Shown here piece after piece: positions 7,633 through 38,663 of a stretch of 64,000 nt of DNA. The stretch lies in the NCBI GenBank assembly GCA_043808155.1, contig JAZDFD010000012.1:1-64000 (forward strand), in the 5' to 3' direction. Position numbers and translations under genes: made by a program. This stretch comes from Candidatus Iainarchaeum sp. GTDB taxonomy: Archaea > Iainarchaeota > Iainarchaeia > Iainarchaeales > JAZDFD01. Numbering within the stretch: position 1 is the first letter of the stretch; the number at the start of each line of letters is the position of its first letter. Below the pieces are notes generated by a model. That model saw only the letters and a list, made by a program, of their open reading frames with translations. It was not told the origin of the DNA and ran no database searches.

Positions 7633-7811
7633 TAATGAAAAATATGAGTGTTATAATGAAAAATAAGAGTGTTATTTTTGTCTCAAGCCGTCACGCCCAG
7701 CTAGTGCGAATATGTGCAGGGTTTCATTGCATTCAACCCTGCGGTAATATGTTTTTGGCAGTTGTTTAAATGGTGAGTTAATGAAAAATAAGAGTGTTAT
7801 ATTCGTCTCAA
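7633..7811 (+). repeat. Triplicated 5' end of rdgB flanking a hairpin element
   Basis: TAATGAAAAATA(T/A)GAGTGTTA at 7633, 7654 and 7779; the last two extend to about 33 bp. Confidence 0.85.
7703..7751 (+). repeat. Dispersed hairpin element, copy 1
   Basis: AATATGT-GCAGGGTT-TCATTGCATTC-AACCCTGC-GGTAATATG. Confidence 0.8.
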
Positions 7812-8350
7812 AAAATCGCTACAAATTTGAGGAAATGAACAACCTGCTTTCAAAATACGGGATTTCACTCTCCATGAATAACTTAGAAGTTCCTGAGAAC
7901 GCAGAAGGAACAATCACAGACGTAGCAATTGATAAAGCAAAAAAAGCATATGCCCTAGTGAAAAAACCCCTTATTATAGAGGACACTGGTGTCTTTTTTG
8001 ATGATTATAACGACTTCCCGGGAATTAACGCAAAACGCGCATATCTTCAGTTAGGTTTCACAGGGCTTCTTGCTCTGGCAAAAGCCACAAAAACAAAAAA
8101 AGCCCATTTCACTACTGTTGTCTGTTATATTTGGGGTCCCAACAAATACAAAACATTTGTTGGCAAAATGTCTGGAACATTATTAACAAAACTTTCCGGA
8201 AAAGAAAAAGACGTGCTTCCTTATGAAAAATTCTTTGTTCCTGAAGGACACAAGAAATCACTCTCACACATCACACGCGAAGAAAAAAACAAATTCTCCC
8301 ACAGAGCAAAAGCAACAGAAAAATTCGGGAAATGGTACGCCCAAAAATAA
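7781..8350 (+). CDS. rdgB: Non-canonical purine NTP pyrophosphatase (RdgB/HAM1)
   Basis: N..K..E, EDTG, FPG, EKNKFSHR. Confidence 0.9.
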   Translation: MKNKSVIFVSKNRYKFEEMNNLLSKYGISLSMNNLEVPENAEGTITDVAIDKAKKAYALVKKPLIIEDTGVFFDDYNDFPGINAKRAYLQLGFTGLLALAKATKTKKAHFTTVVCYIWGPNKYKTFVGKMSGTLLTKLSGKEKDVLPYEKFFVPEGHKKSLSHITREEKNKFSHRAKATEKFGKWYAQK

Positions 8351-8368
8351 GTGAATTGATAACTGATT

Positions 8369-9688
8369 TTATTTTCCCAGAATTTGTTTCATATGCTGAA
8401 CTCTTTTTTCAATGAGTTTTGCTGTTCCGATATCTTTTCTGTAGAAGATTTCACCTTTGACAGTTTCAATTGCATGCTGAGCTTTCTGTTCTGCATCACT
8501 TAATGTGTTTCCAATTCCAACAATTGAAATTGCTCTGCTCCCTGTCATTAAAAGTTTTCCATTTTCTTCATTAACTGCACCGTAGTAAACATTAACTCTT
8601 TTAGACTCTATCTTTGAAATATCAACAACTGCACTGCGTACAGGATTTTCGGGGTAGCCCTTCGGAACAACGTATTTGCATACTGTTGCTTTTTTTGCAA
8701 ATTCTAAGTGTTTTTGTTTCAAATTATTTTCAATCACGCCATAACATGCATCAACAAAATCACTTTCCAAAATTGGCAAACAATTCATTACTTCGGGATC
8801 TCCAAATCTTGAATTGTATTCAATTATTTTAACTCCGTCTTTTGTTAGAATAAAACCACCGTACAAAACACCTTTGTATTTTTCACCAGTTTCTTCCAGT
8901 AAAGCTTTTGCAACTTTTACTGAAATCTCATGTGCCGTTTGCAAATCTTTCTTTTTTAAAAATGGAAGAAGATGATTTTCACATGAATAAGAACCCATTC
9001 CACCGCAGTTAGGGCCTGTGTCATTTTCATAAGCACGCTTATGATCCTGCGCAACCACGCAGTCAACAACATTGACTCCGTCAGTTAAACTCTGCAATGA
9101 GAATTCTTCTCCTTCTAATTTTTCCTCAACAATAACACGCGGATGTTTTCCCAAAACTTCTTTGCAATATTTTATTGCATCATTAACATCTTTCAGATGA
9201 TCGTCCTGAACTTTAACTCCTTTTCCCCCAGTTAACCCATCTGGTTTTATCACAAATCCGTTAAGTGATTCAATAAACTCTTTAATTCCCTCAATGTTCT
9301 CAAAAATCTTAAATTTTGGATTTCCCGGAATCTTATACTTTATAATAAGTTCTCTTGCAAATGATTTGCTTGATTCTAATTTTGCAAGTTCTTTTTTTGG
9401 TCCGATGGATGGAATTCCAATCCTCTCCAACTCATCCGCCGCCCCTATTGCAATTGGGTCATCCGGACCTAAAAATGCAAAATCAACTTTATTTTCAGAT
9501 GCGAATTTTTTCACATTTTCAAAATCTAAGGTATCTCCAAATTTGAATTTTGCAGATTTTTTTATAACACCTGGATTCTTTGCATCCATATATGAATAAA
9601 GTTCAACTTTCTGGGCACTTTTTTTAATAGCTTCTGCAATACAATCCGCACGCGCAGTTTTGCCTATAAGAAGAATCTTTACAGTCAT
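8369..9688 (-). CDS. purD: Phosphoribosylamine-glycine ligase
   Basis: LESSK.FA, KPDGLTGGKGV, QDHKR, GPNCGGMG, EYNSRFGDPE. Confidence 0.95.
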   Translation of the reverse strand: MTVKILLIGKTARADCIAEAIKKSAQKVELYSYMDAKNPGVIKKSAKFKFGDTLDFENVKKFASENKVDFAFLGPDDPIAIGAADELERIGIPSIGPKKELAKLESSKSFARELIIKYKIPGNPKFKIFENIEGIKEFIESLNGFVIKPDGLTGGKGVKVQDDHLKDVNDAIKYCKEVLGKHPRVIVEEKLEGEEFSLQSLTDGVNVVDCVVAQDHKRAYENDTGPNCGGMGSYSCENHLLPFLKKKDLQTAHEISVKVAKALLEETGEKYKGVLYGGFILTKDGVKIIEYNSRFGDPEVMNCLPILESDFVDACYGVIENNLKQKHLEFAKKATVCKYVVPKGYPENPVRSAVVDISKIESKRVNVYYGAVNEENGKLLMTGSRAISIVGIGNTLSDAEQKAQHAIETVKGEIFYRKDIGTAKLIEKRVQHMKQILGK

Positions 9689-9739
9689 AATCTCTCACAC
9701 CTTAATTAAAAGAAAGAGAATTGTTTTTTTATTATTAAC

Positions 9740-11503
9740 CTATTCCAGGTCTTCTTTGCAGTGCCTTTTATCAGTAGCATCTTCTATTTTGTCGCAAATA
9801 TCTATATTTTCAAATTTGACTGCATAATCATAATAACAGGTGTCTGTCATTTCACCCTTTGTTTTGGCGCATGCACTTACATCAAGAGTCCCCAATGCAT
9901 AATTATAATAGCAGAAATTTTTTGCATGATAAATCGTCTGTGAAACATCTCCCGAAATTGATTCACATATAAAACTGTCTTCCACATCTATTGCAACATT
10001 GCTGTAACATTCTGCAAAGTCTTCTGTTGAACTTGTAATCATTTTGCAGAGATCCAAATTGAAAGTATTGAATGCAATTTCATGATAACATTCAACTCTG
10101 CCCTGTTTATCCCAGCTCATTTTTCCGCATAATTCATAATTTTCAGTTGCAATTGCTATGTCTTTATAACAGTCAGTTTTTAATAATCCGTCAAATTCAA
10201 TCATGTTGCATATTTTATAATCTTCTTCATCTTCTTTTGTTGCAACCCTATAATAACAGTCTTCCTTATCATCAATAACCGGCATCTGCTGACAAACTTC
10301 CAGAGTTGCACTTTCTTCAGCTATTGAATTAAGACAGTCTTGATATTCCTTTCCCGGAAGCATTTTACAAACTTTAAAATTTCCTGTGTCAATTCCCACA
10401 TCTGTTACACATTTTATAAAATTTCCGTCTTCTGAAAGACTATTGCAGACAGTTTCATCTTCTGAATAAATTGCAAATTCACTATAACAGTCATCTTTCA
10501 TATCCTTACTTATCATATTGTCACAAATTGTAACATCATTATATTCATCAATTATTGCACTGTAGCATTCATCTCGTGTGTAGCTTGCTTCTCCGCTTTG
10601 ATATTTGAATGATTTTGCAATCTGTCTGCACAAGCTTTCATCTTTTAGTGCTACTGCAACATTTTTATAGCAAACATCTTTTGCATACAGTGTGTCGGTA
10701 TTGTTTGCATAAATCATCTGTGCACAAACACTTGCATCTTTAAGTTCCACTGCAATTGTTTTATAGCAGTTATCTTTAAGTTCCAGAGATTCATTGCTGA
10801 TTTGCGCACAGTATAATTCATCATCCTCTTCCCATGCTTTATCATTATAACAGACATCTTTCAGTTCAGTTGTGTCCTGCGATTCACATTCTGCTACAAT
10901 TATCTCTTCCTCTTCTATGATGCTTCTGCATTTTTCAACTGAAAGAACAGTGAGTTCTTTGCATAGTGAAGCATCTTCGTTAACAATTGCAAGTGTTTTT
11001 ATACAAACATCTCGTGATACTGAAACTTTGCCCTCACAATCATTCATTGATTCTGGAATTTCTGCTTCTTCACTTTCTTCAGCATCTGTTTTTATCAAAT
11101 TATCAGTTATATTGAAAATAGAATCTTCAATTTCTGATTCTGAGCAGCTTACATAATCTGCAGTTTTAGCATCAGTAATAATTTTAAGTTCCCCGTCAAC
11201 TTCTTTTTTGCTCCATTTGTCATCATTTGATTTTTTTGTATAATAAAAATTCCCGTTAAGAACTGTTGTTTCATCCTTTGTTTCAATTCTTACTTTTTCG
11301 TCTTTAACATAAACCTGCATTTCTAAATTTCCAACATCTAAAATGCAATCATAATTGCCTTCACCTGAAAATACCTGATTTAAACCAACCACAACAGGCT
11401 CATTAGTTTCTGTATTTTCAAAAATCATACTCTCGTCTATAATGCAGCCACTAATTAGCAGAGCGAATACCACTAGAATTGAGATTATAATTAATTTATT
11501 CAT
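9740..11503 (-). CDS. Cys-rich repeat surface lipoprotein
   Basis: Lipobox ISGC; many repeats of C..I.......CY...A of about 25-30 aa. Confidence 0.7.
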   Translation of the reverse strand: MNKLIIISILVVFALLISGCIIDESMIFENTETNEPVVVGLNQVFSGEGNYDCILDVGNLEMQVYVKDEKVRIETKDETTVLNGNFYYTKKSNDDKWSKKEVDGELKIITDAKTADYVSCSESEIEDSIFNITDNLIKTDAEESEEAEIPESMNDCEGKVSVSRDVCIKTLAIVNEDASLCKELTVLSVEKCRSIIEEEEIIVAECESQDTTELKDVCYNDKAWEEDDELYCAQISNESLELKDNCYKTIAVELKDASVCAQMIYANNTDTLYAKDVCYKNVAVALKDESLCRQIAKSFKYQSGEASYTRDECYSAIIDEYNDVTICDNMISKDMKDDCYSEFAIYSEDETVCNSLSEDGNFIKCVTDVGIDTGNFKVCKMLPGKEYQDCLNSIAEESATLEVCQQMPVIDDKEDCYYRVATKEDEEDYKICNMIEFDGLLKTDCYKDIAIATENYELCGKMSWDKQGRVECYHEIAFNTFNLDLCKMITSSTEDFAECYSNVAIDVEDSFICESISGDVSQTIYHAKNFCYYNYALGTLDVSACAKTKGEMTDTCYYDYAVKFENIDICDKIEDATDKRHCKEDLE

Positions 11504-11564
11504 TGTTATGAAGTATGTATTTATTGTTTTTAACCTTTTGCCTCGCTAATATGAAATATAACAT

Positions 11565-11647
11565 GCAGGGGTCGGATAGTGGCAATTCCGCTAGATTCAG
11601 GGTCTAGTGCCTTAGTGGCTCCGTGGGTTCGAGTCCCACCCCCTGCA
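11565..11647 (+). tRNA. tRNA-Leu(CAG)
   Basis: GCAGGGG/CCCCTGC acceptor stem; CTAGA-TTCAGGG-TCTAG anticodon arm; long variable arm; GTTCGAG T-loop. Confidence 0.93.
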
Positions 11648-11677
11648 ATTTTAAAATAATCCGTCTTTTCTAATAAC

Positions 11678-11932
11678 ATGGAACTAGTTGAAATTATAGG
11701 TTTTTTTGCAGCTACTTTGACAACAATTGCTTTTTTGCCACAGGTACTCCAAGTGCACAAGACAAAATCTGCAAAAGACATTAGCCTGAAAATGTACATT
11801 CTTTTTTGCATAGGCATTACTCTTTGGTTTGTTTACGGTGTTATGCTTTCATCCCTGCCAATAATACTTGCAAATGGAATCACATTTATATTGGCATTAG
11901 TAATCATTTTTTATAAGCTGAAATATGGGTAA
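11678..11932 (+). CDS. SemiSWEET / PQ-loop transporter
   Basis: TTIAFLPQ, SAKDIS, PIILAN; three transmembrane segments. Confidence 0.9.
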   Translation: MELVEIIGFFAATLTTIAFLPQVLQVHKTKSAKDISLKMYILFCIGITLWFVYGVMLSSLPIILANGITFILALVIIFYKLKYG

Positions 11933-11971
11933 ACTTATGGCAAAGTTAGATTTGCATCTTTAAATTGTTAG

Positions 11972-12388: not shown

Positions 12389-12430
12389 AATATTTTAATA
12401 ATTAAACTAATTAATAACATTATAGTTTCA

Positions 12431-13120: not shown

Positions 13121-13127
13121 TGTTTTG

Positions 13128-22133: not shown

Positions 22134-24449
22134 TTAATTTAACTTGTCCTTGTCAACCCAGTGGATATGAACAAATTCATTTGAATAAATTTTATCCAAA
22201 AACTGGAATTCAATTTCTTCCTTGTAAGTATTATCCCCCACTGGTTTTTCATCTAAATATATTGATCTGTTAATTACATAATCAATACTATATTCTTTCA
22301 GAATCTCAGGATCTTTTTCTTTTAAAAATCTGAAACTATCATCTATCATCTGTTCATTTGCATATTCTACTGCCAAATCTGCAGAAGATTTTCTCTGTGC
22401 ATCATGAATGAAGGGGTGCCCGAGATAAGGTTCATTCAAAAAGTTTGCTTCAGTTGATGAATAGTCTGCAGTATAATTAAATGAATGTGACAAAGAAGGC
22501 GGAACAGTGTAAAAATTCAGAATTATGAAAAACATTATGACATAGCTTAATGAAAAAAAAGCAGCTGTTGCGTATTCTGAAAATTTATCTTTCAAAAAAT
22601 CTTTTGGAAACAGTAATGAAATTAATAATGCAAATGCAACTGTTGCCGCAACATTAATTCTGTATGAAACGAAAAGCTGTATGAATAAATAAACCAGAAG
22701 CATGCCCAAAACCCTTAATGAAAAATTATCAAATTTGCTTTTTCCGGAAAGCAAAAACGGAGCAATAAATACTGCAATTAACATTAAAATTGGCAGATAA
22801 TCCAGGAAGAATCCGTACAAAGGAATGCTCCAGAAATATCCCCATACATCGTATTTTGCCTGACTCGGAATTCCCGAACTCAAAAATGTCGGGATGAAAA
22901 ATATAAATGCAATTATTGCACCTATCACCAATGCTTTAACTAATTCGAAGACCTGTTCTTTCTTTTGAATCAGCAACGGACTTAATGCAATGAAAATCGC
23001 GTACAAAGGTCCCTGAATAAATGTGCAGAACCCCAACACAACTCCACTCATAACTCCTTTATTTCGTCTGAGCAGATACATACTCAAAATTAAAAATGAA
23101 TAACTTATAACATGCCGTATATTAAAACTGAAATCGCTGAAAACAAAGCCCCCGAATAATACTACGGCAGCTCCTAAAAATGCTTTTTTCTCAAGACCAT
23201 AACTCCTGAAAAATAAATATAGCGATGCAACAAACGCAATCTGTGAAAGCAGCATAATTATTGCATAACTTTGCTGTCCTTCCAGTCCCGTCAACCACCC
23301 AATCCCTGGTTTAATGTAAAAATAAGCTGACATATAACCATAAGGTTTTGTTCCAAGAAAACTGAATTCATCAATCTCTGGAATTTTTTCAATTTCAGTA
23401 ATTGTTTTTGACTGCCTTTCATAAAAACTTGTCCAGACTCCGTAATAACTGAAAGTGAACATATTGAAAATAAGTGCAGACCCAAGAATAAGTGCAATCA
23501 GCAAAATAATCATGGGACTTGCTTTTTTTATCATTTCCGAACATTTAACATTTTCAAGAGAATCTTTTTTCTTAAGGTTTTTTCTGAAAAAAATACTTAT
23601 TGCAATAATCGCAATTAAAATTCCAACAACATAATTAAATGCATTAAGTGTTCCGGTAACTAAAAGTGCAAAAAACAAGATAACAAAAATTGAAAAAAAT
23701 GAAACCAGAGTAAATGCAATGCGTTCTGCAAAATCATTTTCTCTGAAAACAAAAGTCCACAAAACAAAAATCAAAACAGAAAGTATTGCAATCCCGAAAA
23801 TATTATTCATATGAAATTTAGGTTCCTTTGAAATTGTAAGTGTTTTCTCAATTCCCTGGAATTCTGCTTTAATTTCATTTTCCCCTTCCTGCAATTTCAC
23901 TGTCTCAGCAGAGGAAAATTCATTTCCAGAAAAATAAACTCTGTGGTCTAAGTTACCATTAACATAAATTGAAACAGGGGCATAGGCTTTTCCGTCATAA
24001 TTATTTATCTCAATTTCAACTTTTTCATTTTCTGCACTTAAAAAAAATTCAGGAACAGTTTTCTCATAGTTCTGTACTACCACATGATAAAACAAGGTAT
24101 GAGACCCGAAAAACATTGTAACTTTGTTTTCACCAGAATTCAAAAACTCTGAAGAAACACACTCACTAATCCCATGTCTGTTTGAAACATCAACTTTTTT
24201 CTGCAGTACAACAGACTCATTTGCAACTATGGTCATATCCTGAAAATTTTCCGTGTAATAATTTGATTCAATTCCCATTATGAAGCAGCTGTCCTCGTCC
24301 TCACTAACTTTTTTGTCAAACTCCTCCAGAAATATGTTTACTGATTTGAAATCTCCTGAAAAAGTTCCCCAGTAAAAGCTGCCCTGCCATGCAATAACTA
24401 ATAATAAAAAAATCCCTGCAAACAGCAGTATCTGATTTTTAGTAATCAT
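22134..24449 (-). CDS. Multi-pass membrane protein, possible GT-C glycosyltransferase
   Basis: Extracellular N-terminal domain, 12 or more transmembrane segments, C-terminal LKEYSIDYV...IYSN similar to STT3-like C-termini. Confidence 0.55.
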   Translation of the reverse strand: MITKNQILLFAGIFLLLVIAWQGSFYWGTFSGDFKSVNIFLEEFDKKVSEDEDSCFIMGIESNYYTENFQDMTIVANESVVLQKKVDVSNRHGISECVSSEFLNSGENKVTMFFGSHTLFYHVVVQNYEKTVPEFFLSAENEKVEIEINNYDGKAYAPVSIYVNGNLDHRVYFSGNEFSSAETVKLQEGENEIKAEFQGIEKTLTISKEPKFHMNNIFGIAILSVLIFVLWTFVFRENDFAERIAFTLVSFFSIFVILFFALLVTGTLNAFNYVVGILIAIIAISIFFRKNLKKKDSLENVKCSEMIKKASPMIILLIALILGSALIFNMFTFSYYGVWTSFYERQSKTITEIEKIPEIDEFSFLGTKPYGYMSAYFYIKPGIGWLTGLEGQQSYAIIMLLSQIAFVASLYLFFRSYGLEKKAFLGAAVVLFGGFVFSDFSFNIRHVISYSFLILSMYLLRRNKGVMSGVVLGFCTFIQGPLYAIFIALSPLLIQKKEQVFELVKALVIGAIIAFIFFIPTFLSSGIPSQAKYDVWGYFWSIPLYGFFLDYLPILMLIAVFIAPFLLSGKSKFDNFSLRVLGMLLVYLFIQLFVSYRINVAATVAFALLISLLFPKDFLKDKFSEYATAAFFSLSYVIMFFIILNFYTVPPSLSHSFNYTADYSSTEANFLNEPYLGHPFIHDAQRKSSADLAVEYANEQMIDDSFRFLKEKDPEILKEYSIDYVINRSIYLDEKPVGDNTYKEEIEFQFLDKIYSNEFVHIHWVDKDKLN

Positions 24450-24485: not shown

Positions 24486-27080
24486 TTATCTGAGGAATGC
24501 GCTGGCAGTAACACCTGCATCCCATGAATATCTCGGCCTGACTCTAATCATCCAGATTTTCTCAGTATTGTCATCTATAATCAGTGCATAACCCTTTTCT
24601 TTGGGCATTTCTGCATAATACTTATCCAGATCCTGATGCAGATAACTCGGTCTTAATGCAGAAACTGCATCAATATCAGGTTTTGAAGTCATTCTGTGAC
24701 TTATGAATAAATCACACTGGGAGATGGCATCGGGATGCAGTTTATTCGGACGTTGTGTTGCCAACAAAAGGCTCAAACCTGGTTGCCGTCCCACACGCAC
24801 CCATTCAAGCAGAACTCTTAATGCAATATTGTCTTCATCTTTGGGCATGAACATATGCGCTTCATCAATCATCATCCAGATAATTGGCATTGAACTTTCT
24901 TTTGTTTTCCCCTGAATTAGTTTCATTTCTTCTTCCTTTCTGTAAAGCATTCTTTCTTCAAAAAGTTTTTTTCCAAGCAGTGCAACAATAATGTCTTTAG
25001 TTCCTTCCATTCCAATTGCCTGTCTGTAAGCAGAAACATCAATAATTGTAACTTTTCCCGGCTTTGTAATATCTTTTATTTTAGTTCCTTCCTTTTCAAT
25101 CAAACCCCAGCTTTTTGCAATGTTTATTCTGTTAATAGTTGCCTGTTTTTCATGTGGGGAAGATTCTGTATCCTGCTTTATTGCAGTTATAATATCGTCA
25201 AGCCCAAAGTAGGTTCCCATTTTTTCTTTTATTGTTTCAATAACACGTGTAAGGAGAATTCCTTCGGGATCTCTCCATGTAAGTTTAAATAATGCCATCC
25301 ATTCAATTGCTTCCAATTCACTTGCTTTTAATGTGAATGCACCATCAACAGGAATGTTTTTTTCTTTGTAAAATTTAAGTTTTCCTTTGGGTACAAAAAC
25401 TTTTGTGTCTGTTCCCGCTGGTTCCAAATCCCAGCTTTTCAAATATTCTACGTTCGCAGTATCTGGTAATTTCAAACTCCAAAAAATTCCAACAGTATCA
25501 ATCACAATAACTGACACTCTTGATTTCACACTCGGCGGAAGTCTTGCAAATTCTTCTATAAGAACTGCCATAGTGTAACTGTTGTGAATTATTATGTCAT
25601 TTGCTACAAAATTGTGCATTTCAGGAACTGAAATATCGTAGACTGTTGTTTTTTCATTTATTTCCTCAATTTTTTTTATCTCATCCCAGTAAACATCTGA
25701 TTCTGCAATATTTTGAATTAATTCATTTTCATCCGCAAGTGCAATTTGCAATAATTTATTTCTGCTCGGTGAATATCTAACACTTTCCCGTAATGCTTTT
25801 GGATGCTTGTAACCAATTTTTCTTCCAACCGCAGCCCAGTTTTCAGGAATATAATAATCCCAGATTTCTTTCGGAATTGTGTCTAAATTAGGATTGAATT
25901 TCTTGTCTTTAATGTCTTTTTGAAATTGCGCCTGCAATTCCTCTTTTTTCCCAAAGAACCCAATTTGATTTATAAACTCCTTGCAGAATTGACCCTCAAT
26001 AGTTAATTCAAATGATGTAAACTGTTTTCCATCCAAAATAATTTTTTTATCTCTTAGAATCGAAACAATCCCAAATTTAAGCAATAAGTGCTGAATCTGT
26101 TTTATCATTTTTTCAGAACTTGAACAATAGCTTATCCGATATCTTGTGTCTTCTTTCCAGATGCTACCGTCACAGGAAAACAAACGGTTCAGGAATAGTG
26201 CTGTTTTTTGTTTTGTTAGTGAGAAGACTTCTTTTGGAATTGTTTTTTCTGTTGCTTTAAATCCGTATGCGCCAATCGAAATAAGCCAATCTTTCAACGA
26301 GTGCTGTTTCTCAAATATAATTCCCTTTGCAAATTTCCCTTCATTTCTTACATTTTTTTCAATTTTTTGTTTAAATTCTTTGCATACTACTCTGAATTGC
26401 TCTTCAGTATTTTTCATTTTTTTGACAGTGAGTTTTTCATCAAAAGTTATTACTGCTTTTTTGAAATCATTTTGGATTTTTTTATCAGTGTTCGTGAACC
26501 ATACTGCTTTTCGCATTGTGTGGCCTTCTGCAATAAGATATGCCAATAGTTTAATCTGTGATTCACTCATGAATTCATTGCCGAAGAAACTTATTTTTCT
26601 TGGCGTAGCAATGCGTGAACCTTCTGAAAGTTCACTTACTGGTTTCCACCCGTCAATTGTAAGCAAGGGGTGTTCAGGAGTCAAAGTTATTTCTTTCCCT
26701 GCTCGTGTTGTTATTTTCAAAACTTTTTCTACTTCTCTGCTGAAAAAATCACTTTTTTTTGCAGGTTCTAATTTGTAGCTTTCATTTAATGCAATTATTT
26801 TTTTTGAATTTTTTTTCAAATTTTCAATTTTTTCAATAGATCCATCTTCAAGAATTATTTCGGTATCTCCTGAAACGCATTTTCCTCCTCCGCGCTTGCC
26901 GCATACAAGCATAACATGCGGCATTGCTAAATCAATAAGGATTTTTCTTCCCATTACTGGAGTTTCACCTGAACTCATTACAACTTTTCCCAGATAACCA
27001 GTGCCGTCTTCCCCGTATTTCTCAATATCCGAAAGGGAACGCCCCACAATTGAACTCTTTTCACTAAGCTCCATAGCCAT
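24486..27080 (-). CDS. HerA/FtsK-like (DUF87) ATPase containing an intein
   Basis: Walker A GKRGGGK|SYT split by the intein; IDEAH, GRQPG, ATQRP. Confidence 0.88.
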   Translation of the reverse strand: MAMELSEKSSIVGRSLSDIEKYGEDGTGYLGKVVMSSGETPVMGRKILIDLAMPHVMLVCGKRGGGKCVSGDTEIILEDGSIEKIENLKKNSKKIIALNESYKLEPAKKSDFFSREVEKVLKITTRAGKEITLTPEHPLLTIDGWKPVSELSEGSRIATPRKISFFGNEFMSESQIKLLAYLIAEGHTMRKAVWFTNTDKKIQNDFKKAVITFDEKLTVKKMKNTEEQFRVVCKEFKQKIEKNVRNEGKFAKGIIFEKQHSLKDWLISIGAYGFKATEKTIPKEVFSLTKQKTALFLNRLFSCDGSIWKEDTRYRISYCSSSEKMIKQIQHLLLKFGIVSILRDKKIILDGKQFTSFELTIEGQFCKEFINQIGFFGKKEELQAQFQKDIKDKKFNPNLDTIPKEIWDYYIPENWAAVGRKIGYKHPKALRESVRYSPSRNKLLQIALADENELIQNIAESDVYWDEIKKIEEINEKTTVYDISVPEMHNFVANDIIIHNSYTMAVLIEEFARLPPSVKSRVSVIVIDTVGIFWSLKLPDTANVEYLKSWDLEPAGTDTKVFVPKGKLKFYKEKNIPVDGAFTLKASELEAIEWMALFKLTWRDPEGILLTRVIETIKEKMGTYFGLDDIITAIKQDTESSPHEKQATINRINIAKSWGLIEKEGTKIKDITKPGKVTIIDVSAYRQAIGMEGTKDIIVALLGKKLFEERMLYRKEEEMKLIQGKTKESSMPIIWMMIDEAHMFMPKDEDNIALRVLLEWVRVGRQPGLSLLLATQRPNKLHPDAISQCDLFISHRMTSKPDIDAVSALRPSYLHQDLDKYYAEMPKEKGYALIIDDNTEKIWMIRVRPRYSWDAGVTASAFLR
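25581..26879 (-). mobile_element. Intein with LAGLIDADG homing endonuclease (433 aa)
   Basis: Starts CVSGDT; block B TPEHP; LAYLIAEG and LFSCDG; ends HNFVAND...HN followed by Ser. Confidence 0.93.
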
Positions 27081-29458: not shown

Positions 29459-29470
29459 TTTTAATTTTCT

Positions 29471-29651
29471 ATTAACAAATTTCAGGGGTTGGCAAGGGGA
29501 TGAAATCCAAAGTTCCATTAAAAAATTTCAGGGTTTGAAAAGGGACAGAGTCCCTATCCGGCGCTCCGGATGTGAGCATATGTGCCCTATCTTCGATAGG
29601 GCGGTAATTTACATTAACAAATTTCAGGGTATGAAAAGGGACAGAGTCCCT
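29471..29651 (+). repeat. Direct repeats (AAATTTCAGGG..AAGGGACAGAGTCCCT) enclosing hairpin element copy 5
   Basis: 39-bp copies at 29517-29555 and 29613-29651 with 2 mismatches; partial copy at 29471; ATATGT-GCCCTATC-TTC-GATAGGGC-GGTAATT at about 29578-29609. Confidence 0.85.
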
Positions 29652-29722
29652 TTCAGGCGAAGGAGTTGGGTATTTGAGAAAGTTGGCAAAGAGGTGGGGG
29701 TTGGGAGTTAAAAAGAAGTAAC

Positions 29723-32097: not shown

Positions 32098-32115
32098 TTT
32101 GTGCACCTCCAGGGA

Positions 32116-33287: not shown

Positions 33288-33428
33288 TTTTTCTTACCTC
33301 GCTAATTTTTTATAATATATTTGAATATATTATACTTTGTGCCTGCCCTAATTTAAATACGTTTCGGGCAGTTTTGAGTTTATAAAGCGTTTTCTAGTTT
33401 AAAAACCTTTCCGTGAGATTAATTGGAT

Positions 33429-34364: not shown

Positions 34365-34455
34365 TTTGACACCAATAACAATCTTTATATTCCTTCCCCT
34401 ATTTATTAGATTTATATAAACGAACTATATTAAAGTTCTCTTTTTTGGTGATATA

Positions 34456-34632
34456 ATGGTTAAATTAAGAAAAGGTCCTGGCGTCTCAAGCCCAAGTTCA
34501 TCTTTGGGGATTATGAGATTCTTTGATGCAGACACAAAAGGACCCAAAATGTCCCCTGAGTTTGTGATTGCATTATCTTTAGGACTCATTTTAGTAGTTC
34601 TCGCAGCAAGATACTTTTTGGGATTGAATTAA
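34456..34632 (+). CDS. secG: Preprotein translocase subunit Sec61beta (absent from the ORF track)
   Basis: Translates to MVKLRKGPGVSSPSSSLGIMRFFDADTKGPKMSPEFV followed by a transmembrane segment; GGTGA RBS. Confidence 0.88.
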   Translation: MVKLRKGPGVSSPSSSLGIMRFFDADTKGPKMSPEFVIALSLGLILVVLAARYFLGLN

Positions 34633-34635
34633 GAT

Positions 34636-37479
34636 TCACTTCTTAATCTCAATGTAAAAAGACCTTTCAAGAACTTTCTGCAGTTCACCCTGTTTTTCTG
34701 AAATTTTTGTGTTTGTTTCTTTTTCAATTAGGGTTTTCCATTTTTTCAAAAACATAGAGTCATCACTCCCTAAAAACAAATCAATTGTGTCATTAGGATT
34801 GAGTTTTTCTTCTTTTCTCATTGACTGAATTCTTCTTACGAGTTCTCTGAATTCCCATTCTTGCTTCAATTCAGAATCTGCATCAATATTCAATACAAAT
34901 TTAATTCCTGAAGCTTCACCTTCTGCATAATTTCCTGAAACACTTTCATGAACTCTGATTTTTTTCACATTAACCATGCTTGCAAGAACATGTTTCAGAT
35001 TTGGAAATATGTCTTCTTTTGAAAGCACAACTAATTCTTTAAGCGGCCATCTCAGTCTCATTTTATGTTCTTCACGCAATGAAAGTGCACTTTGTGAAAT
35101 TTCTCTTACTAAATTCATTTCTTTTTCCAGACTTTCATCTTTCAGTGCATCAAATGCTTTTGGAAAGGGAAGCATGTGAACTGATTCTGGAGACTTAGCT
35201 TTCTTCAAATACTGATAAATATATTCTGAAATATGCGGAGTAACTGGTGCAAGGATTTTCATAAGTGTCTTAACAACAACACTCATTACTTTGCTTGCTT
35301 CTTCTCCGGTTTCAGTTCCAATTCTGCCCCTTACTAATTTAATGTAAGTTCTGCTGAAATCTTCCAGAACAAAATCAGAAACTAATTTTGGAACTTTAAA
35401 ATAAACATATGTTTCAAATGCATTGTCACATTCTTCAACCAATGAATTTAACCTGCTCAAAATCCACTTATCTTCTGCCTGCAATTTTTTCATATTAACT
35501 TTTGCATCTAAATCCAAATTCATGTAAAGTGCTGCAAAATTCATTGAGTTCCAGAAAATATTAAAGAATCTTGAAATGTCTTTGTAAATTTCCCAGTCAA
35601 AACCAAAGTCTTCCCCTCTTGAAGCCATTGTTAAATGGAATCGTAAATAATCTCTGTTGTGTTTTTCAAAAACTTCTGAAGGCTGAACATTGTTCCCTAA
35701 ACTTTTACTCATTTTTTTCTTATCTAAATCAGTAACCATTCCGTGAACCATGATATTTTTGAATGGTTTTTCATCAAATGAAATCACTGAATTTAATAAC
35801 TCCGCATTCCACCATCCGCGTACCTGCTCAGTTGCTTCAATGTTCAAATCAGCAGGCCAGTATTTTTTGAAAAGCTTGTCCCCTTTAGAATAATCCAATG
35901 CACCCCAGCTTGAAATCCCCGCATCAAACCAAACATCTAATGTTTCTTTAACGCGTGTCATAGTCCCTCCGCATTTGCAGGGAATTGTAATTTCATCAAT
36001 GAAAGGTTTGTGCAATTCTAAATCTTTAGGAACTTTTGTCTTCTCTTTAAGCTCTTTTAGCGAACCAATAACAACCTGTTCTCCGCACTCACAAATCCAG
36101 ATTGGGCACGGCGCACCCCAATATCTTTCACGCGTAACTGGCCAGTCATTCAAAGTATCTAACCAGTCATGCATTCTGTCTTCCATCCAGCTTGGTACCC
36201 AGTTAACTTCCTGATTCAAATCAACTGCTTTTTTCTGGATGCTTTCAACTTTCAAAAACCACTGAGGAATTGAAACCATCAGTAACGGACTTTTACAACG
36301 CCAGCAAATTGGGTAATCATGTGTATAAGGATGTTTGTAAATTAAGTTTCCTGATTCTTCTAAATCAGAAACAATTTCTTTATCAACTTCTCTTGCTTTC
36401 TTTCCTGCATATTTTCCAGTTTCTTCTGTTAACTCACCGTTAATTTTCACAGGGCAGTACGCTGGCAAACCTGTTTCTCTGCCAACTGTAAAATCTTCTT
36501 TACCATGTCCTGGTGCAGTATGAACCAAACCAGTTCCGTCTTCAACATTAACAAATCTTGCACTTAACACAACTCTGTTCGCATTTTCAAATTCAGGACG
36601 CTTCATGTGTTTTTCTAATGGGTTTTCATATCTCCAGCCTTCCAATTCTTTTCCTGGAAATTCTCTTTTCACAACATAACCTGCTTCTATTGCTTCCATT
36701 AATTTCTGCAGTAATTCTTTTGCCATAATCCATGTTTCACCCATCACTTCAACTTCAACATATGTTTCAGTCGGGTGAACCATCACACCTGTGTTGCCTG
36801 GTAGCGTCCACGGAGTAGTAGTCCAAATCAATAAGAAGGTTTTTTCTTTTCCCATAACCGGAAATTTAAAATAAATTGAATTATCTGTTTGTTTTGTATA
36901 TTCAATCTCATTATATGCAACTGCAGTTGCACATCTCGGACAAACATGAACAGGATATGTCCCTTTGTATAACAAACCTTTTTCCTCTGCTTTTTTAAAA
37001 GTCCACCAGATTGATTCTATATATTCATTATTAAGTGTCAAATATGGATTTTCCCAGTCCATCCAGACTCCCAAATCTGCAAACTCATCATTCATTGTGC
37101 CAATGAATTTTGTTGCATACTCCCTGCACTTTTCAACAAACTTTCCAACGCCGTAATTTTCAATATCGTGTTTTCCTCTAAATCCTAATTCTTTTTCAAC
37201 CTGAAATTCAATTGGCATTCCATGGCAATCATAACCTGGTCTGTCAAACACGTCACGACCGTTCATTCTCCAGTATCTGATTGCAACATCCTTCAGAATT
37301 TTATTTAATGCAGTTCCCATGTGAATGTGACCTGTTGCATACGGCGGGCCGTCCATGAAATAAAAAGTTTTTTCAGCACTGTCATTCATGTGCCTGACTT
37401 TATTTGCAATGTCATGTTTATCCCAGAAGTCTTTCACTTCTTTTTCCTTTTCCTTATTGTATGCTTCTAATGTTTTCAT
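34636..37479 (-). CDS. ileS: Isoleucyl-tRNA synthetase
   Basis: DGPPYATGHIHMG, WTTTPWTLP, GTGLVHTAPGHG, KMSKS. Confidence 0.95.
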   Translation of the reverse strand: MKTLEAYNKEKEKEVKDFWDKHDIANKVRHMNDSAEKTFYFMDGPPYATGHIHMGTALNKILKDVAIRYWRMNGRDVFDRPGYDCHGMPIEFQVEKELGFRGKHDIENYGVGKFVEKCREYATKFIGTMNDEFADLGVWMDWENPYLTLNNEYIESIWWTFKKAEEKGLLYKGTYPVHVCPRCATAVAYNEIEYTKQTDNSIYFKFPVMGKEKTFLLIWTTTPWTLPGNTGVMVHPTETYVEVEVMGETWIMAKELLQKLMEAIEAGYVVKREFPGKELEGWRYENPLEKHMKRPEFENANRVVLSARFVNVEDGTGLVHTAPGHGKEDFTVGRETGLPAYCPVKINGELTEETGKYAGKKAREVDKEIVSDLEESGNLIYKHPYTHDYPICWRCKSPLLMVSIPQWFLKVESIQKKAVDLNQEVNWVPSWMEDRMHDWLDTLNDWPVTRERYWGAPCPIWICECGEQVVIGSLKELKEKTKVPKDLELHKPFIDEITIPCKCGGTMTRVKETLDVWFDAGISSWGALDYSKGDKLFKKYWPADLNIEATEQVRGWWNAELLNSVISFDEKPFKNIMVHGMVTDLDKKKMSKSLGNNVQPSEVFEKHNRDYLRFHLTMASRGEDFGFDWEIYKDISRFFNIFWNSMNFAALYMNLDLDAKVNMKKLQAEDKWILSRLNSLVEECDNAFETYVYFKVPKLVSDFVLEDFSRTYIKLVRGRIGTETGEEASKVMSVVVKTLMKILAPVTPHISEYIYQYLKKAKSPESVHMLPFPKAFDALKDESLEKEMNLVREISQSALSLREEHKMRLRWPLKELVVLSKEDIFPNLKHVLASMVNVKKIRVHESVSGNYAEGEASGIKFVLNIDADSELKQEWEFRELVRRIQSMRKEEKLNPNDTIDLFLGSDDSMFLKKWKTLIEKETNTKISEKQGELQKVLERSFYIEIKK

Positions 37480-37490
37480 TCTATCACTCT

Positions 37491-37525
37491 CATATTACCG
37501 CAGGGTTGAAAACCCTGCACATATT
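37491..37525 (-). repeat. Hairpin element, copy 2 (shortened loop)
   Basis: Reverse strand AATATGT-GCAGGGTT-TTC-AACCCTGC-GGTAATATG. Confidence 0.8.
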
Positions 37526-37550
37526 GCGGACCATCCGTACGCAATTGGAT

Positions 37551-37624
37551 TGGGCATGGGAGGATTTGAACCCCCGACCCTTGGTGTATAAGACCAATGC
37601 TCTGCCAGACTAAGCTACATGCCC
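37551..37624 (-). tRNA. tRNA-Ile(UAU)
   Basis: GGGCATG/CATGCCC acceptor stem; TTGGT-CTTATAC-ACCAA anticodon arm; GTTCAAA T-loop. Confidence 0.9.
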
Positions 37625-37705
37625 ACAAGGCCACAACCTTGAATTGCAACCCATACTCACTTTGTTCATATGGGTTTTGCTCACTTCGTTTGCACACGCT
37701 CCTCG

Positions 37706-37756
37706 AGTGCGAATACGTGCGATATTTCGCTTTGCTCAATATCGCGGTAATATTCC
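37706..37756 (+). repeat. Hairpin element, copy 3
   Basis: AGTGCGAATACGT-GCGATATT-TCGCTTTGCTC-AATATCGC-GGTAATATTCC. Confidence 0.8.
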
Positions 37757-37916
37757 TATAACCCGAGCTTAAAGCGCAATTAAAATTAGAATTAGAAATA
37801 TGTTTAAATAGATGATTAATCTGTTTCCGGGTGAATCCGCTGCCCGAGTATTTGATAACACCTTCTGGTAGTCATGAATTATTCCTTCTATGAATGGTTT
37901 TTAAAGCTAACCATGT

Positions 37917-38456
37917 TTACCCAACAGTTTCAAAAATATCAACCAATTTCTCAACATCTCTTTTAAGAGCTTCAAAATCAGAATTATTTTCAATTTCTTC
38001 ATCTGCAGAGTCAATTACTTTTCCAAGTCCTTTATTTTTAACATCTCTCTCATCACGCGCAAAGAATTCAACTCTGTCTTGTGCATCCTGTGAATTTTTC
38101 CTGTCAAATCTTTTATCACTTTCAGCAACAACTCTCACGAGAACACATTTTTCCAGATACTTTTTTAAATATTCAACCTCTTCCAATGAACGTGCACCAA
38201 CAAAAACTGCTTTTTCTGCGTTCGTATTTTTTGCTTTCTCAAAAACTAACTGTGCAACAACATCCATTCCTCTTTCTGTTCTAAGTTCATCTCCGACTTG
38301 GGAAAGATTCATTTTTGTAAGTTCAAGATTTTGTTTTCTTAATTCATCAAACAAACAGTCACTGAAAACAAAAATATCATAACCAAAATCATGCAGCATT
38401 TTTGCAACAGTATCTTTTCCGCTTCTGGCTAAACCCGTAATTATAATTCCATTCAT
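37917..38456 (-). CDS. P-loop kinase, archaeal dephospho-CoA kinase-like
   Basis: GLARSGKDT, LR...G..V.A, GAR...E, RD.R. Confidence 0.75.
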   Translation of the reverse strand: MNGIIITGLARSGKDTVAKMLHDFGYDIFVFSDCLFDELRKQNLELTKMNLSQVGDELRTERGMDVVAQLVFEKAKNTNAEKAVFVGARSLEEVEYLKKYLEKCVLVRVVAESDKRFDRKNSQDAQDRVEFFARDERDVKNKGLGKVIDSADEEIENNSDFEALKRDVEKLVDIFETVG

Positions 38457-38500
38457 TTTCTCACTTTATAAAAAAGCCCACACATCCTTTTATACTTTCT

Positions 38501-38590
38501 GGACAGGGGACTGCCCCCTTGTTACGCTATTTCACTAAAGTGAAATGCGCCTATTTCAACTTTGTTGAAATCGGGACCCCTGAAATTGTT
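38501..38590. repeat. Composite palindromic repeat (GGGGACTGCCCC plus two ATTTCA hairpins)
   Basis: ATTTCAC-TAAA-GTGAAAT and ATTTCAAC-TTT-GTTGAAAT; reverse-strand AATTTCAGGGG matches the 29.5-kb repeats. Confidence 0.65.
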
Positions 38591-38618
38591 ACTCAATAAA
38601 AAGAATAAAAAAGAAAAA

Positions 38619-38663
38619 GGAATATTACCGAGACATTGAGCAAAACGAAAATGTCTCACATAT
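38619..38663 (-). repeat. Hairpin element, copy 4
   Basis: Reverse strand ATATGT-GAGACATT-TTCGTTTTGCTC-AATGTCTC-GGTAATATTCC. Confidence 0.8.

What the first reader, a model, noticed from the sequence alone, without database searches (positions are those of the whole stretch)
7703..38663. Dispersed hairpin element with fixed flanks and fully covarying stems (five copies)
Seen: ATAYGTG...CGGTAAT occurs at 7703-7751(+), about 29578-29609(+), 37491-37525(-), 37706-37756(+) and 38619-38663(-). The 8-bp stem differs but always pairs perfectly: GCAGGGTT/AACCCTGC (twice), GCCCTATC/GATAGGGC, GCGATATT/AATATCGC and GAGACATT/AATGTCTC. The loop is either TTC or a TCGCTTTGCTC-like sequence. The flanks form a bulged outer stem, and three copies have a second small CCG/CGG hairpin just upstream. 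All copies are intergenic. Inference: compensatory change around a conserved bulge suggests selection on structure, either a REP-like ssDNA element recognised by a HUH/RAYT-type nuclease or an undescribed structured RNA motif. No transposase is present in the window.
Basis: partly seen in the sequence, partly recalled or inferred. Interest (0 to 1): 0.8.

Follow-up and report, generated by a model that had tools for sequence, protein, structure and literature searches.

The report
Tiny hairpin mobile element in archaea
A roughly 60-base two-hairpin DNA element is scattered through the genomes of some very small archaea and appears to have inserted itself next to genes, duplicating unusually long and variable stretches of the target, a behaviour that fits no described family of small prokaryotic mobile elements.

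Summary
There are five copies of ATAYGT-[perfect 8-bp stem]-loop-[stem']-GGTAAT in 64 kb, against none in 300 shuffles. The window comes from a DPANN archaeon close to Diapherotrites/Iainarchaeota.

One genome scan found four more copies plus one variant, all in archaeal MAGs. All 80 stem pairs in the 10 copies are Watson-Crick. Six of 9 aligned pairs show compensatory change and none is broken. Rfam has no match.

The new finding is that the hairpin is only the core of a 55-70 nt unit. Upstream sits a 22-28 nt left arm with its own small hairpin. In 6 of 10 copies the unit lies between direct repeats of 11-51 bp. These repeats often contain a gene's start or stop codon. Controls gave 0 of 2000 random positions and 0 of 71 look-alike sites with an exact repeat of 11 nt or more. 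The left junction is precise and the right one is fuzzy, with 0-30 nt of filler.

Best reading: a non-autonomous mobile element that makes long, variable target duplications. The enzyme is unknown, and no transposase lies in the window. It is not REP, attC, a MITE or an IS200/IS605 derivative. The closest analogues are IS1549/IS1634 and Replitron-1. Only ten copies were seen.

The parts
7687..7750 (+). Copy 1. Left arm 7687-7709, core 7710-7748 (stem GCAGGGTT, 11-nt loop), tail AT.
   Evidence: (80 bits).
7654..7686 (+). Copy 1, left (orphan) copy of the 33-nt target duplication. It holds a copy of the start codon and first codons of the HAM1/RdgB gene.
   Evidence: D5: 33 nt, 94%; score 56; left repeat ends 23 nt before the core.
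7749..7778 (+). Copy 1, 30-nt filler between GGTAAT and the right repeat. It carries a GGTGA Shine-Dalgarno-like word just before the gene's ATG.
   Evidence: and the sequence.
7779..7811 (+). Copy 1, right copy of the duplication. This is the real 5' end of the HAM1/RdgB gene (ATG at 7781).
   Evidence: (protein 6).
7632..7655 (+). A further, insert-free partial tandem copy (about 21 nt) of the same gene start, directly before the left repeat.
   Evidence: D4: three copies, spacing 21 and 125.
29556..29608 (+). Copy 2. Left arm about 29556-29577 (hairpin ATCCGG/CCGGAT), core 29578-29608 (stem GCCCTATC, loop TTC).
   Evidence: (62.9 bits).
29513..29563 (+). Copy 2, left copy of the 51-nt duplication. 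Its last 8 nt overlap the left arm, so the boundary is ambiguous (43-51 nt).
   Evidence: D1: 54 nt, 89%; score 77, 46 of 51 identical.
29609..29659 (+). Copy 2, right copy of the duplication. It starts directly after GGTAAT with no filler.
29464..29517 (+). An older, insert-free third copy (63% identical) of the same repeat unit, 46 nt upstream.
   Evidence: D1.
37492..37550 (-). Copy 3. The left arm starts at the 3' end of tRNA-Ile(UAU). Core 37494-37524 (stem GCAGGGTT, loop TTC). It ends 14 nt before the ileS ATG (37479). No flanking repeat.
   Evidence: (protein 29).
37689..37753 (+). Copy 4. Left arm 37689-37712, core 37713-37751 (ATACGT variant, stem GCGATATT, long loop TCGCTTTGCTC). It lies head to head with copy 3 across the tRNA. 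No flanking repeat.
   Evidence: (78 bits).
38622..38691 (-). Copy 5. The left arm (hairpin CGTCCG/CGGACG) starts right after the thermosome stop codon (38692-38694). Core 38624-38663 (stem GAGACATT, long loop). No flanking repeat.
   Evidence: protein 32; 76.3 bits.

Best explanation
**What it is.** The hairpin is the core of a miniature (55-70 nt), non-coding, non-autonomous mobile DNA element found in Diapherotrites/Iainarchaeota-type (DPANN) archaea.

**Anatomy, 5' to 3'.**
- A 22-28 nt left arm that folds into a small hairpin (about 4-6 bp, about 9-nt loop) and carries a conserved YTKCG word.
- The linker ATAYGT.
- A perfectly Watson-Crick 8-bp hairpin. Its sequence is free except for G...C at the base and a T-A pair near the top.
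- A single-stranded tail, GGTAAT(AT).

**Shown.**
- The unit has been inserted at many unrelated sites, typically at gene boundaries.
- Insertion duplicated 11-51 bp of the target.
- The left junction is precise and usually follows an A-run. The right junction is fuzzy, with 0-30 nt of filler.

**Inferred.**
- A sequence-free but always perfect stem between fixed single-stranded words indicates recognition as a folded single strand by a protein supplied in trans.
- One precise end, one fuzzy end and long variable duplications fit a copy-and-paste reaction. In that reaction only the left (5') end is joined by the enzyme to a free 3'-OH. The right (3') end is then resolved by re-priming or annealing on the target, which re-copies a variable stretch.
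- My preferred catalyst is an HUH-type Rep/relaxase-like nuclease that reads 'hairpin plus conserved tail'. I give about 0.3 to that specific step. I give about 0.7 to 'mobile element that makes long variable target duplications'.
- A long duplication that includes a start or stop codon leaves the neighbouring gene intact. That would explain why copies survive at gene ends in these compact genomes.
For: **1. Real family.** Five of 5 pattern hits carry perfect stems, against 0 in 300 shuffles. The covariance model separates the 5 copies (E <= 9e-11) from everything else in the window (next hit E = 1.4).

**2. Present in other genomes at unrelated loci.** Of 75 pattern hits in 185,579 species' genomes, 4 have perfect 8-bp stems. 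All 4 are in archaeal MAGs: L004 (labelled Candidatus ainarchaeum), L013, L049 and L063. L013 also holds a long-loop variant. The neighbouring genes differ: ogg, aIF5A/NYN, PTH2, pheS/pheT. In the window they are HAM1, ileS/tRNA-Ile and the thermosome gene.

**3. Flanking direct repeats in 6 of 10 copies.**
- The repeats are 33 nt (31/33 identical), 51 nt (46/51), 43-45 nt (95%), 24 nt (24/24), 19 nt (18/19) and 11 nt (11/11).
- Flank-alignment score >= 33 was reached by 5 of 10 elements, 14 of 1000 random window positions and 2 of 71 non-hairpin pattern hits.
- An exact repeat of 11 nt or more at the expected boundaries was found in 4 of 10 elements, 0 of 2000 random positions and 0 of 71 controls.

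**4. Boundaries.**
- The left repeat ends 23, 25, 25, 24 and 28 nt before the core (14-22 for copy 2).
- The right repeat starts 0, 8, 9, 9, 28 and 30 nt after it.
- Five of the 6 repeats end in A and 4 of 6 in AA. The A frequency in the window is 0.32.

**5. The repeats contain gene ends.** They include the HAM1 start codon (copy 1), the ogg stop (L004), the pheS stop (L063) and the stop of ORF 425-889 (L013 variant). Copy 5 starts right after a stop codon, and copy 3 starts at the tRNA 3' end.

**6. Structure.**
- All 80 of 80 stem pairs are Watson-Crick.
- Helix 2 is 100% paired with 6 of 9 pairs doubly changed. No shuffle of 500 reached the observed covariation score (0/500), and sliding the partners drops pairing to 27-52%.
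- All 10 copies fold as two hairpins plus a free tail.

**7. Precedents.** Long variable duplications are documented for IS1549/IS1634 (8-514 bp; PMC2266710, passages read). A precise left end, fuzzy right end and variable duplications are documented for Replitron-1 (PMC10288648, section 9 part 1 read).
Against: - Only 10 copies from 5 genomes were seen.
- No empty site in a relative could be compared, so 'insertion' is inferred from the duplications alone.
- Four of 10 copies (c3, c4, c5, L049) have no significant flanking repeat. L049's 7-nt repeat is at chance level (120 of 2000 random positions reach 7 nt).
- No candidate enzyme was seen, either in the window or in the +-2 kb around the MAG copies.
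- The element has no terminal inverted or direct repeats, so it fits no known transposase's substrate.
- Near-identical subfamilies occur in genomes of different composition. For example, copy 2 and L049 differ only by one compensated pair. This could equally mean a host function under selection.
- Both loci that carry an extra insert-free tandem copy show that local duplication can also occur without the element.
- The four MAG copies were picked by requiring a stem, so their perfect pairing is partly by selection. Their shared left arm and duplications were not selected for.
Confidence: 0.6

Rival explanations
1. SINE-like retroposon. A small structured RNA, transcribed from the strand complementary to the one described here, is copied into DNA at a nick by target-primed reverse transcription. 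Its 3' end gives the precise 'left' junction. Its 5' end gives the fuzzy junction with filler. A loosely placed second-strand nick gives long variable duplications.
For: - Variable duplications of 11-51 bp, one precise and one fuzzy junction, and filler of up to 30 nt. From general knowledge of LINE/SINE insertion (recalled), these are the classic signature of target-primed reverse transcription.
- Five of 6 duplications end in A. That would pair with a U-run at the 3' end of an archaeal transcript (inference).
Against: - No reverse transcriptase was found in the window ORFs scanned.
- None of the 80 stem pairs is G-T. That is unexpected for a structure selected at the RNA level.
- The left arm shows no truncated copies.
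- As far as I know, no retroposon of this kind has been described in Archaea. This is recalled; my three literature searches found none.
Confidence: 0.15
2. Miniature derivative of a DDE transposon. Its transposase cuts the two target strands far apart, as IS1549 and IS1634 do. The 8-bp stem would be what remains of the two inverted ends after internal deletion.
For: - Long, variable direct repeats (8-514 bp) are documented for IS1549/IS1634, and the IS1634 family is reported as preferentially found among Euryarchaeota (PMC2266710, passages read).
- The L013 variant carries 46 nt in the loop. So the loop can hold extra DNA.
Against: - The conserved words ATAYGT and GGTAAT are not inverted copies of each other.
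- The left arm has no counterpart on the right. The true ends show no inverted repeat (read by eye from the junctions; no tool test was run).
- The stem sequence differs between copies in one genome. That is the opposite of a transposase-binding end.
- No DDE domain was found in the window ORFs scanned.
Confidence: 0.1
3. A host-functional hairpin that is not itself mobile. It would be a protein-binding or RNA-level signal, for example a terminator, a processing site or a regulatory site at gene boundaries. The flanking repeats would arise from hairpin-provoked replication slippage.
For: - Exact conservation of the flanks and of two loop subfamilies across genomes of different composition.
- Location at gene boundaries, often beside translation genes: ileS, tRNA-Ile, pheS/T, aIF5A, PTH2.
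- Insert-free tandem duplications next to copies 1 and 2.
Against: - Orientation is antisense to both neighbours in L049, and antisense to the gene it follows in L004 and L063. It is sense in c1, c3 and c5.
- No shared neighbouring gene and no Rfam match.
- Slippage across a hairpin would not place the same 22-28 nt left arm precisely against the repeat in 5 loci of 4 genomes.
Confidence: 0.08

Closest known systems
REP / REPIN elements mobilised by RAYT (Y1 HUH) transposases
   Same: - A short dispersed extragenic palindrome with a fixed short word beside a stem.
- Thought to be read as a folded single strand.
- No coding capacity; the enzyme acts in trans.
- One inverted pair is present (copies 3 and 4).
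   Different: - REPs carry a 5' GTAG-type word and imperfect GC-rich stems that are similar within a genome, and they make no target duplication (all recalled).
- Here the flanks are ATAYGT/GGTAAT, the stems differ between copies, there is a second hairpin arm, and 6 of 10 copies have 11-51 bp duplications.
- No RAYT gene was seen.
IS200/IS605-derived miniature elements (PATEs)
   Same: Hairpins near the ends, no inverted terminal repeats, known in archaea, single-strand logic.
   Different: - Those elements insert 3' of a fixed tetra- or pentanucleotide without duplicating the target, and their left and right hairpins resemble each other (recalled).
- Here there are long duplications, unlike hairpins, and only an A-rich preference at the left junction.
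IS1549 / IS1634 (IS1634 family, DDE)
   Same: The only prokaryotic elements I found reported to make long, variable-length direct repeats (8-514 bp). The mechanism is unexplained, and the family is common in Euryarchaeota (PMC2266710, passages).
   Different: They are 1.5-2 kb autonomous insertion sequences with inverted ends and a DDE transposase. This unit is about 60 nt and has neither.
Replitron-1 / Replitron-N1 (eukaryotic HUH Rep transposons of Chlamydomonas)
   Same: A precise left end placed after a short purine target, a 'fuzzy' right end carrying extra bases, variable-length target duplications, a hairpin near the right end, and a non-autonomous partner (PMC10288648, section 9).
   Different: - They are eukaryotic and 0.9-3.6 kb.
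- They have 6-bp direct terminal repeats, which are not seen here.
- Their fuzzy bases come from the parental flank. I could not show that here.
Integron attC sites
   Same: Structure is conserved while sequence is free, with fixed words at the two feet of the hairpin, and recognition as a folded single strand. Integrons have been reported in Archaea (recalled).
   Different: - attC feet are the mutually complementary R''/R' words RYYYAAC and GTTRRRY with extrahelical bases, and cassettes are inserted without duplication (recalled).
- Neither word is present, and the two feet here do not pair.
SINEs / target-primed retroposons
   Same: Short, structured, non-coding. Variable target duplications, an A-rich target, and one ragged junction.
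   Different: They are known from eukaryotes. No reverse transcriptase is seen here, and the stems are all Watson-Crick.

Membership tests
REP/RAYT | Conserved 5' GTAG-type tetranucleotide next to an imperfect GC-rich palindrome that is similar among copies of one genome (recalled definition) | tested here: not met
   The flanks are ATAYGT and GGTAAT. Four different stems occur among the 5 window copies, and all are perfect.
REP/RAYT | No target-site duplication | tested here: not met
   Six of 10 copies are flanked by 11-51 bp repeats.
REP/RAYT | A RAYT (tnpA-like Y1 HUH) gene in the genome, flanked by the repeats | not testable with these tools
   None was found among the window ORFs scanned. 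The rest of the genome is not available, and the source genome is absent from the scanned collection.
MITE | Terminal inverted repeats matching a parent insertion sequence | tested here: not met
   The left-end and right-end sequences defined by the duplications show no inverted repeat (junctions, read by eye).
MITE | Target duplication of fixed, short length | tested here: not met
   Lengths are 11, 19, 24, 33, 43-45 and 43-51 nt.
IS200/IS605-derived (PATE) | Insertion 3' of a fixed 4-5 nt target without duplication, and similar hairpins at both ends (recalled) | tested here: not met
   Duplications are present. The left hairpin (4-6 bp, about 9-nt loop) is unlike the right one (8 bp). The only target preference is an A-run.
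Integron attC | Complementary R''/R' core words (RYYYAAC ... GTTRRRY) at the base of the hairpin (recalled) | tested here: not met
   The alignment of 9 copies shows the invariant words ATA-GTG and CGGTAAT instead, and these do not pair.
IS1634 family | Long variable-length direct repeats on insertion | tested here: met
   11-51 bp. Compare 8-514 bp reported in PMC2266710 (passage read).
IS1634 family | DDE transposase gene between inverted ends, 1.5-2 kb | tested here: not met
   The unit is 55-92 nt and non-coding. No DDE domain was found in the window ORFs scanned.
Any Rfam RNA family | Score at or above the family's gathering threshold | tested here: not met
   The whole window at gathering threshold gives 2 tRNA matches only. 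The E-value search of 37450-38720 (three copies) gives no hit better than E = 1.9 apart from the tRNA.
Rolling-circle / HUH Rep-mobilised element (functional analogy, not membership) | A hairpin plus a conserved single-stranded word as the nuclease site, one precise and one imprecise end, and a Rep gene in trans | tested here: inconclusive
   The hairpin with an invariant tail and the asymmetry of the ends are present. No Rep gene was seen, and strand bias cannot be tested with 5 copies (3 on +, 2 on -).

The most novel reading that the evidence does not exclude
This is the first example in Archaea of a miniature element that spreads by a one-ended, copy-and-paste reaction. A single strand carrying a hairpin is joined at one precise end, either by a Replitron-like HUH Rep or by target-primed reverse transcription. 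The other end is resolved by host replication or repair. This produces long variable target duplications that preserve the neighbouring gene's start or stop. If so, it is a previously unrecognised insertion mechanism in prokaryotes. It may also explain how the stems stay perfectly paired while their sequence drifts.
Probability: 0.3. Interest if true: 0.85.

Novelty: new variant of a known kind. Interest (0 to 1): 0.66.

Why it matters
**Gap in knowledge.** I know of no described small repeat family in DPANN archaea. The one MITE review I consulted lists archaeal MITEs only from Sulfolobus, haloarchaea and a few others (PMC10969869, passages read).

**Mechanism.** A 60-nt element with conserved structure and free sequence points to an enzyme that reads DNA shape. 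The long, variable duplications point to an insertion chemistry that is unexplained even for IS1634 (PMC2266710 states that no model exists).

**Practical consequences.**
- The element creates orphan copies of gene starts and stops. These can mislead gene callers.
- It can supply new upstream sequence to a gene, as in copy 1.
- It gives a compact marker for strain-level comparison of these uncultured archaea.

Tried and rejected
- **Outer bulged stem (ATAT/ATAT).** No covariation, mismatches in 2 of 5 window copies, and absent from all 10 DNA folds.
- **Stem sequence copied from the flanking target.** Only copy 2 shares a 7-mer with its flank (14 of 500 shuffled stems reach it). The other 9 copies are at chance.
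- **Composite transposon [copy 3 - tRNA-Ile - copy 4].** No direct repeat flanks the pair (best score 18, which is background).
- **Rfam.** No family matched.
- **BLAST of copy 5 against phage and plasmid collections.** Only chance hits (E >= 2).
- **Second alignment A2.** It misaligned copy 2 and was not used.
- **L036 (Patescibacteria).** It scored 28.9 bits with the model but has no stem and only a chance flank match. L027 (Odinarchaeota) and L051 (Micrarchaeota) also lack a full stem.
- **L049's 7-nt flanking repeat.** Not above chance (6% of random positions).
- **In-situ purifying selection on the stems.** From the divergence of the repeats I expected only about 2 stem mutations, so seeing none is not informative. 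This was a hand estimate.
- **Known RNA motifs.** I looked by eye for K-turn, C/D box, H/ACA, sarcin-ricin and bulge-helix-bulge motifs, using recalled consensus words. None fits, and no tool test was run.
- **A promoter role for GGTAATAT.** The spacing to start codons is inconsistent.
- **Alternative pairing of the left spacer with CGGTA.** Possible in only 3 of 9 copies (read by eye).


Full report
**1. The observation**

Reading the five sites and scanning both strands with a regex gives exactly five matches to ATAYGTG-N-CGGTAAT:
- 7710-7748(+)
- 29578-29608(+)
- 37494-37524(-)
- 37713-37751(+)
- 38624-38663(-)

Each has a perfect 8-bp stem. The stems are GCAGGGTT (twice), GCCCTATC, GCGATATT and GAGACATT. 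The loops are either 3 nt (TTC) or 11-12 nt.

All five CGGTAAT words in the window belong to these copies. In 300 dinucleotide-preserving shuffles the flank pattern appeared 0.13 times on average, and never with a stem. A covariance model built from the five copies recovers them at E <= 9e-11. Nothing else in the window scores better than E = 1.4.

**2. The host**

The window is an archaeal chromosome with 35% G+C. It encodes a thermosome subunit, archaeal Dph6, a NusA-like factor, IleRS, MinD and gas-vesicle proteins, plus three tRNAs. The nearest named relatives of the thermosome protein (70-73% identity) are labelled Candidatus Diapherotrites, Candidatus ainarchaeum or 'archaeon'; one hit each is labelled Aenigmarchaeota and Micrarchaeota. 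The host is therefore a DPANN archaeon close to Iainarchaeota.

No transposase, integrase or reverse-transcriptase domain was found among 40 ORFs scanned with NCBIfam or 33 scanned with Pfam. The two largest unassigned ORFs resemble lipoprotein-like and membrane glycosyltransferase-like clusters (these are leads only).

**3. Copies elsewhere**

That pattern would match only copies 1 and 3 of the window. It returned 75 loci.

Sorting them by stem length gave 4 loci with 8 consecutive pairs, 1 with 7, 2 with 6, and 68 with 5 or fewer. The four are all archaeal MAGs: L004 (Candidatus ainarchaeum), L013, L049 and L063. The source genome itself is not in that collection.

With the model, these four score 30.5-60.8 bits. 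The 71 others score 16.6-28.9 bits, which is what the 18 fixed bases alone provide. I checked the best of those, L036, and it has no stem. L013 holds a second, variant copy (ATATGC ... AGTAAT) with 46 nt in the loop.

Because the pattern was strict and only +-2 kb was fetched around each hit, copy numbers in those genomes are unknown.

**4. Structure**

I aligned nine copies. RNAalifold predicts the 8-bp hairpin plus an invariant T-G at its foot, and a small upstream helix.

Pair counts:
- The main helix is 100% paired. Six of 9 pairs have changes on both sides and 3 are invariant.
- The observed covariation score is 0.603, against 0.156 in shuffles (0 of 500 reach it). Sliding the partners drops pairing to 27-52%.
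- The upstream helix is weaker: 80.6% paired, with 2 of 4 pairs doubly changed.

All 80 stem pairs of the ten copies are Watson-Crick. None is G-T. Folded as DNA, all ten copies give the same picture: a small left hairpin, a short linker, the 8-bp hairpin and a free GGTAAT(AT) tail.

The four MAG copies were chosen for having a stem, so their pairing is not independent evidence. Their shared left arm and flanking repeats were not selected for.

Two loop subfamilies are shared between genomes:
- Short loops: TTC, TGTT, TTGC.
- Long loops near TCGYTTTKCTC: copies 4 and 5 and L063.

Copy 2 and L049 differ in the core only by one compensated pair.

**5. The new finding: flanking duplications**

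A repeat scan of the window showed that copy 1 lies between two 33-nt direct repeats (94% identical). Copy 2 lies between two 54-nt repeats (89%).

The same holds in the MAGs:

| Copy | Repeat length | Identity |
|---|---|---|
| c1 | 33 nt | 31/33 |
| c2 | 51 nt | 46/51 |
| L004 | 43-45 nt | 95% |
| L013 | 24 nt | 24/24 |
| L063 | 19 nt | 18/19 |
| L013 variant | 11 nt | 11/11 |

Copies 3, 4, 5 and L049 have none. L049's 7-nt repeat is at chance level.

Controls:
- Flank-alignment score >= 33: 5 of 10 elements, 14 of 1000 random window positions, and 2 of 71 non-hairpin pattern hits.
- Exact repeat of 11 nt or more at the expected boundaries: 4 of 10 elements, 0 of 2000 random positions, and 0 of 71 controls.

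**6. Junctions**

The left repeat ends 23, 25, 25, 24 and 28 nt before ATAYGT (14-22 for copy 2, where the boundary is ambiguous). So the unit has a defined left arm. The right repeat starts 0, 8, 9, 9, 28 and 30 nt after GGTAAT, so that end is ragged and sometimes carries filler. Five of 6 repeats end in A and 4 of 6 in AA; the A frequency in the window is 0.32.

The copies without repeats obey the same left-arm length:
- Copy 5's arm begins right after the thermosome stop codon.
- Copy 3's arm begins at the 3' end of tRNA-Ile, and the unit ends 14 nt before the ileS ATG.
- L049 lies within the 67-nt spacer between two genes, with its left arm starting at the neighbouring ORF's start codon.

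**7. Insertion sites**

The repeats contain gene ends:
- the start codon and first codons of HAM1/RdgB (copy 1);
- the stop codon of ogg (L004);
- the stop codon of pheS (L063);
- the stop codon of ORF 425-889 (L013 variant).

In each case one repeat copy continues the intact gene and the other is an orphan.

Orientation relative to the neighbours is mixed. It is sense in c1, c3, c5 and L013. It is antisense to the gene it follows in L004 and L063, and antisense to both neighbours in L049. There is no common neighbouring gene.

**8. Interpretation**

The following together are what an insertion with target duplication looks like, not a regulatory RNA:
- an identical short unit at unrelated sites in five genomes;
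- bracketing by site-specific repeats that duplicate functional gene ends;
- one exact and one ragged junction.

All-Watson-Crick stems and mixed orientation also favour DNA over RNA.

A stem whose sequence is free but whose pairing is perfect, set between invariant single-stranded words, suggests recognition of a folded single strand by a protein acting in trans.

Long, variable duplications with one precise end suggest that only one end is joined by that protein, and that the other is resolved by re-priming on the target. I consider an HUH Rep/relaxase-type nuclease the most likely catalyst, at about 0.3. Such enzymes read 'hairpin plus adjacent conserved word'. Replitron-1 shows the same trio of features: a precise left end, a fuzzy right end and variable duplications (PMC10288648, section 9 part 1 read).

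Target-primed reverse transcription and a DDE enzyme of the IS1549/IS1634 type remain open. The latter makes 8-514 bp repeats, and no model has been proposed for it (PMC2266710, passages read). None of these steps is shown here.

A purely host-driven route is also conceivable. In it, a 5' flap protected by hairpins escapes flap processing and is ligated. This idea rests on recalled knowledge of flap-endonuclease mutants.

**9. What it is not**

- Not any Rfam family.
- Not REP: different flank words, variable stems, duplications present.
- Not attC: the core words are absent and the feet do not pair.
- Not a MITE: no inverted ends, and the duplication length is variable.
- Not an IS200/IS605 derivative: duplications are present and the two hairpins are unlike.

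The definitions of these families are recalled, not tested against reference sequences.

Three literature searches found no paper on such an element in DPANN archaea. Nor did passages of a 2024 review of prokaryotic MITEs (PMC10969869). Subscription journals and bioRxiv supplements were not searchable, so 'not described' rests on those searches alone.

**10. Limits**

- Ten copies from five genomes.
- No empty-site comparison and no view of the rest of the source genome.
- The single genome scan used a pattern that misses most variants.
- Four of 10 copies show no repeat.
- The extra insert-free tandem duplications beside copies 1 and 2 may be excision footprints or independent slippage. I cannot tell which.

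**11. Verdict**

This is a real family that I could not find in the literature I searched. It is best read as a miniature structure-dependent mobile element with long variable target duplications.
- About 0.7 for mobility.
- 0.6 for the explanation as a whole.
- About 0.3 for the HUH step.

It is a new variant of a known kind (small non-autonomous mobile elements), with features that fit no described prokaryotic family.

Noticed in passing
window 37648-37676 (+): A further perfect 8-bp hairpin (AACCCATA/TATGGGTT) lies between tRNA-Ile and copy 4. Its 13-nt loop contains a word 9 of 11 identical to the long-loop consensus. It lacks the ATAYGT/GGTAAT flanks, and the model did not find it. It may be a decayed or variant copy. 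The loop match alone is at chance level, since 22 such matches occur in the window.
   Followed up: partly
window 29479, 29525, 29621 (+) and 38578 (-): The word (A)AATTTCAGGG, followed by a short hairpin, recurs in the repeats around copy 2 and 39 nt to the right of copy 5. It occurs 6 times in the window against 1.09 expected. It could be a preferred target, a terminator-like host signal or a small RNA gene.
   Followed up: partly
window 7632-7655 and 29464-29517: Insert-free tandem partial duplications (21 nt and 46 nt periods) lie directly beside the target duplications of copies 1 and 2. They may be footprints of earlier insertion and excision, or independent slippage.
   Followed up: no
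window 37550-37625 (-) and 34636-37479 (-): tRNA-Ile with anticodon TAT lies immediately upstream of the isoleucyl-tRNA synthetase gene. It is bracketed head to head by copies 3 and 4.
   Followed up: partly
window 24486-27080 (-): An 864-aa ORF combines a HerA-type helicase region with an intein: the N- and C-terminal splicing motifs and a large insert at residues 68-501 (protein 20). The 771-aa neighbour at 22134-24449 has no family; the Atlas suggests it is a membrane glycosyltransferase-like protein.
   Followed up: no
window about 43950-50100: A gas-vesicle gene cluster (GvpN at 44329-45393, GvpA-like at 45994-46320, GvpF/L-like at 49139-49798) lies in what appears to be a DPANN genome. 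As far as I recall, this is unusual for that group.
   Followed up: no
window 43301-43408 (-): Two tandem 54-nt units, 93% identical, lie inside the unassigned ORF 42837-43469.
   Followed up: no
window 1472-2992 (+): Diphthine-ammonia ligase (Dph6, residues 282-500) is fused to an N-terminal asparagine-synthase-like PP-loop domain (protein 2).
   Followed up: no
window 40392-40445 (-): Two 20-nt direct repeats, 34 nt apart, lie upstream of the thermosome gene (D9). They may be a regulator binding site. The thermosome start region also contains ATATGT and TAATATG words that gave a weak, non-significant model hit (E = 1.4).
   Followed up: partly
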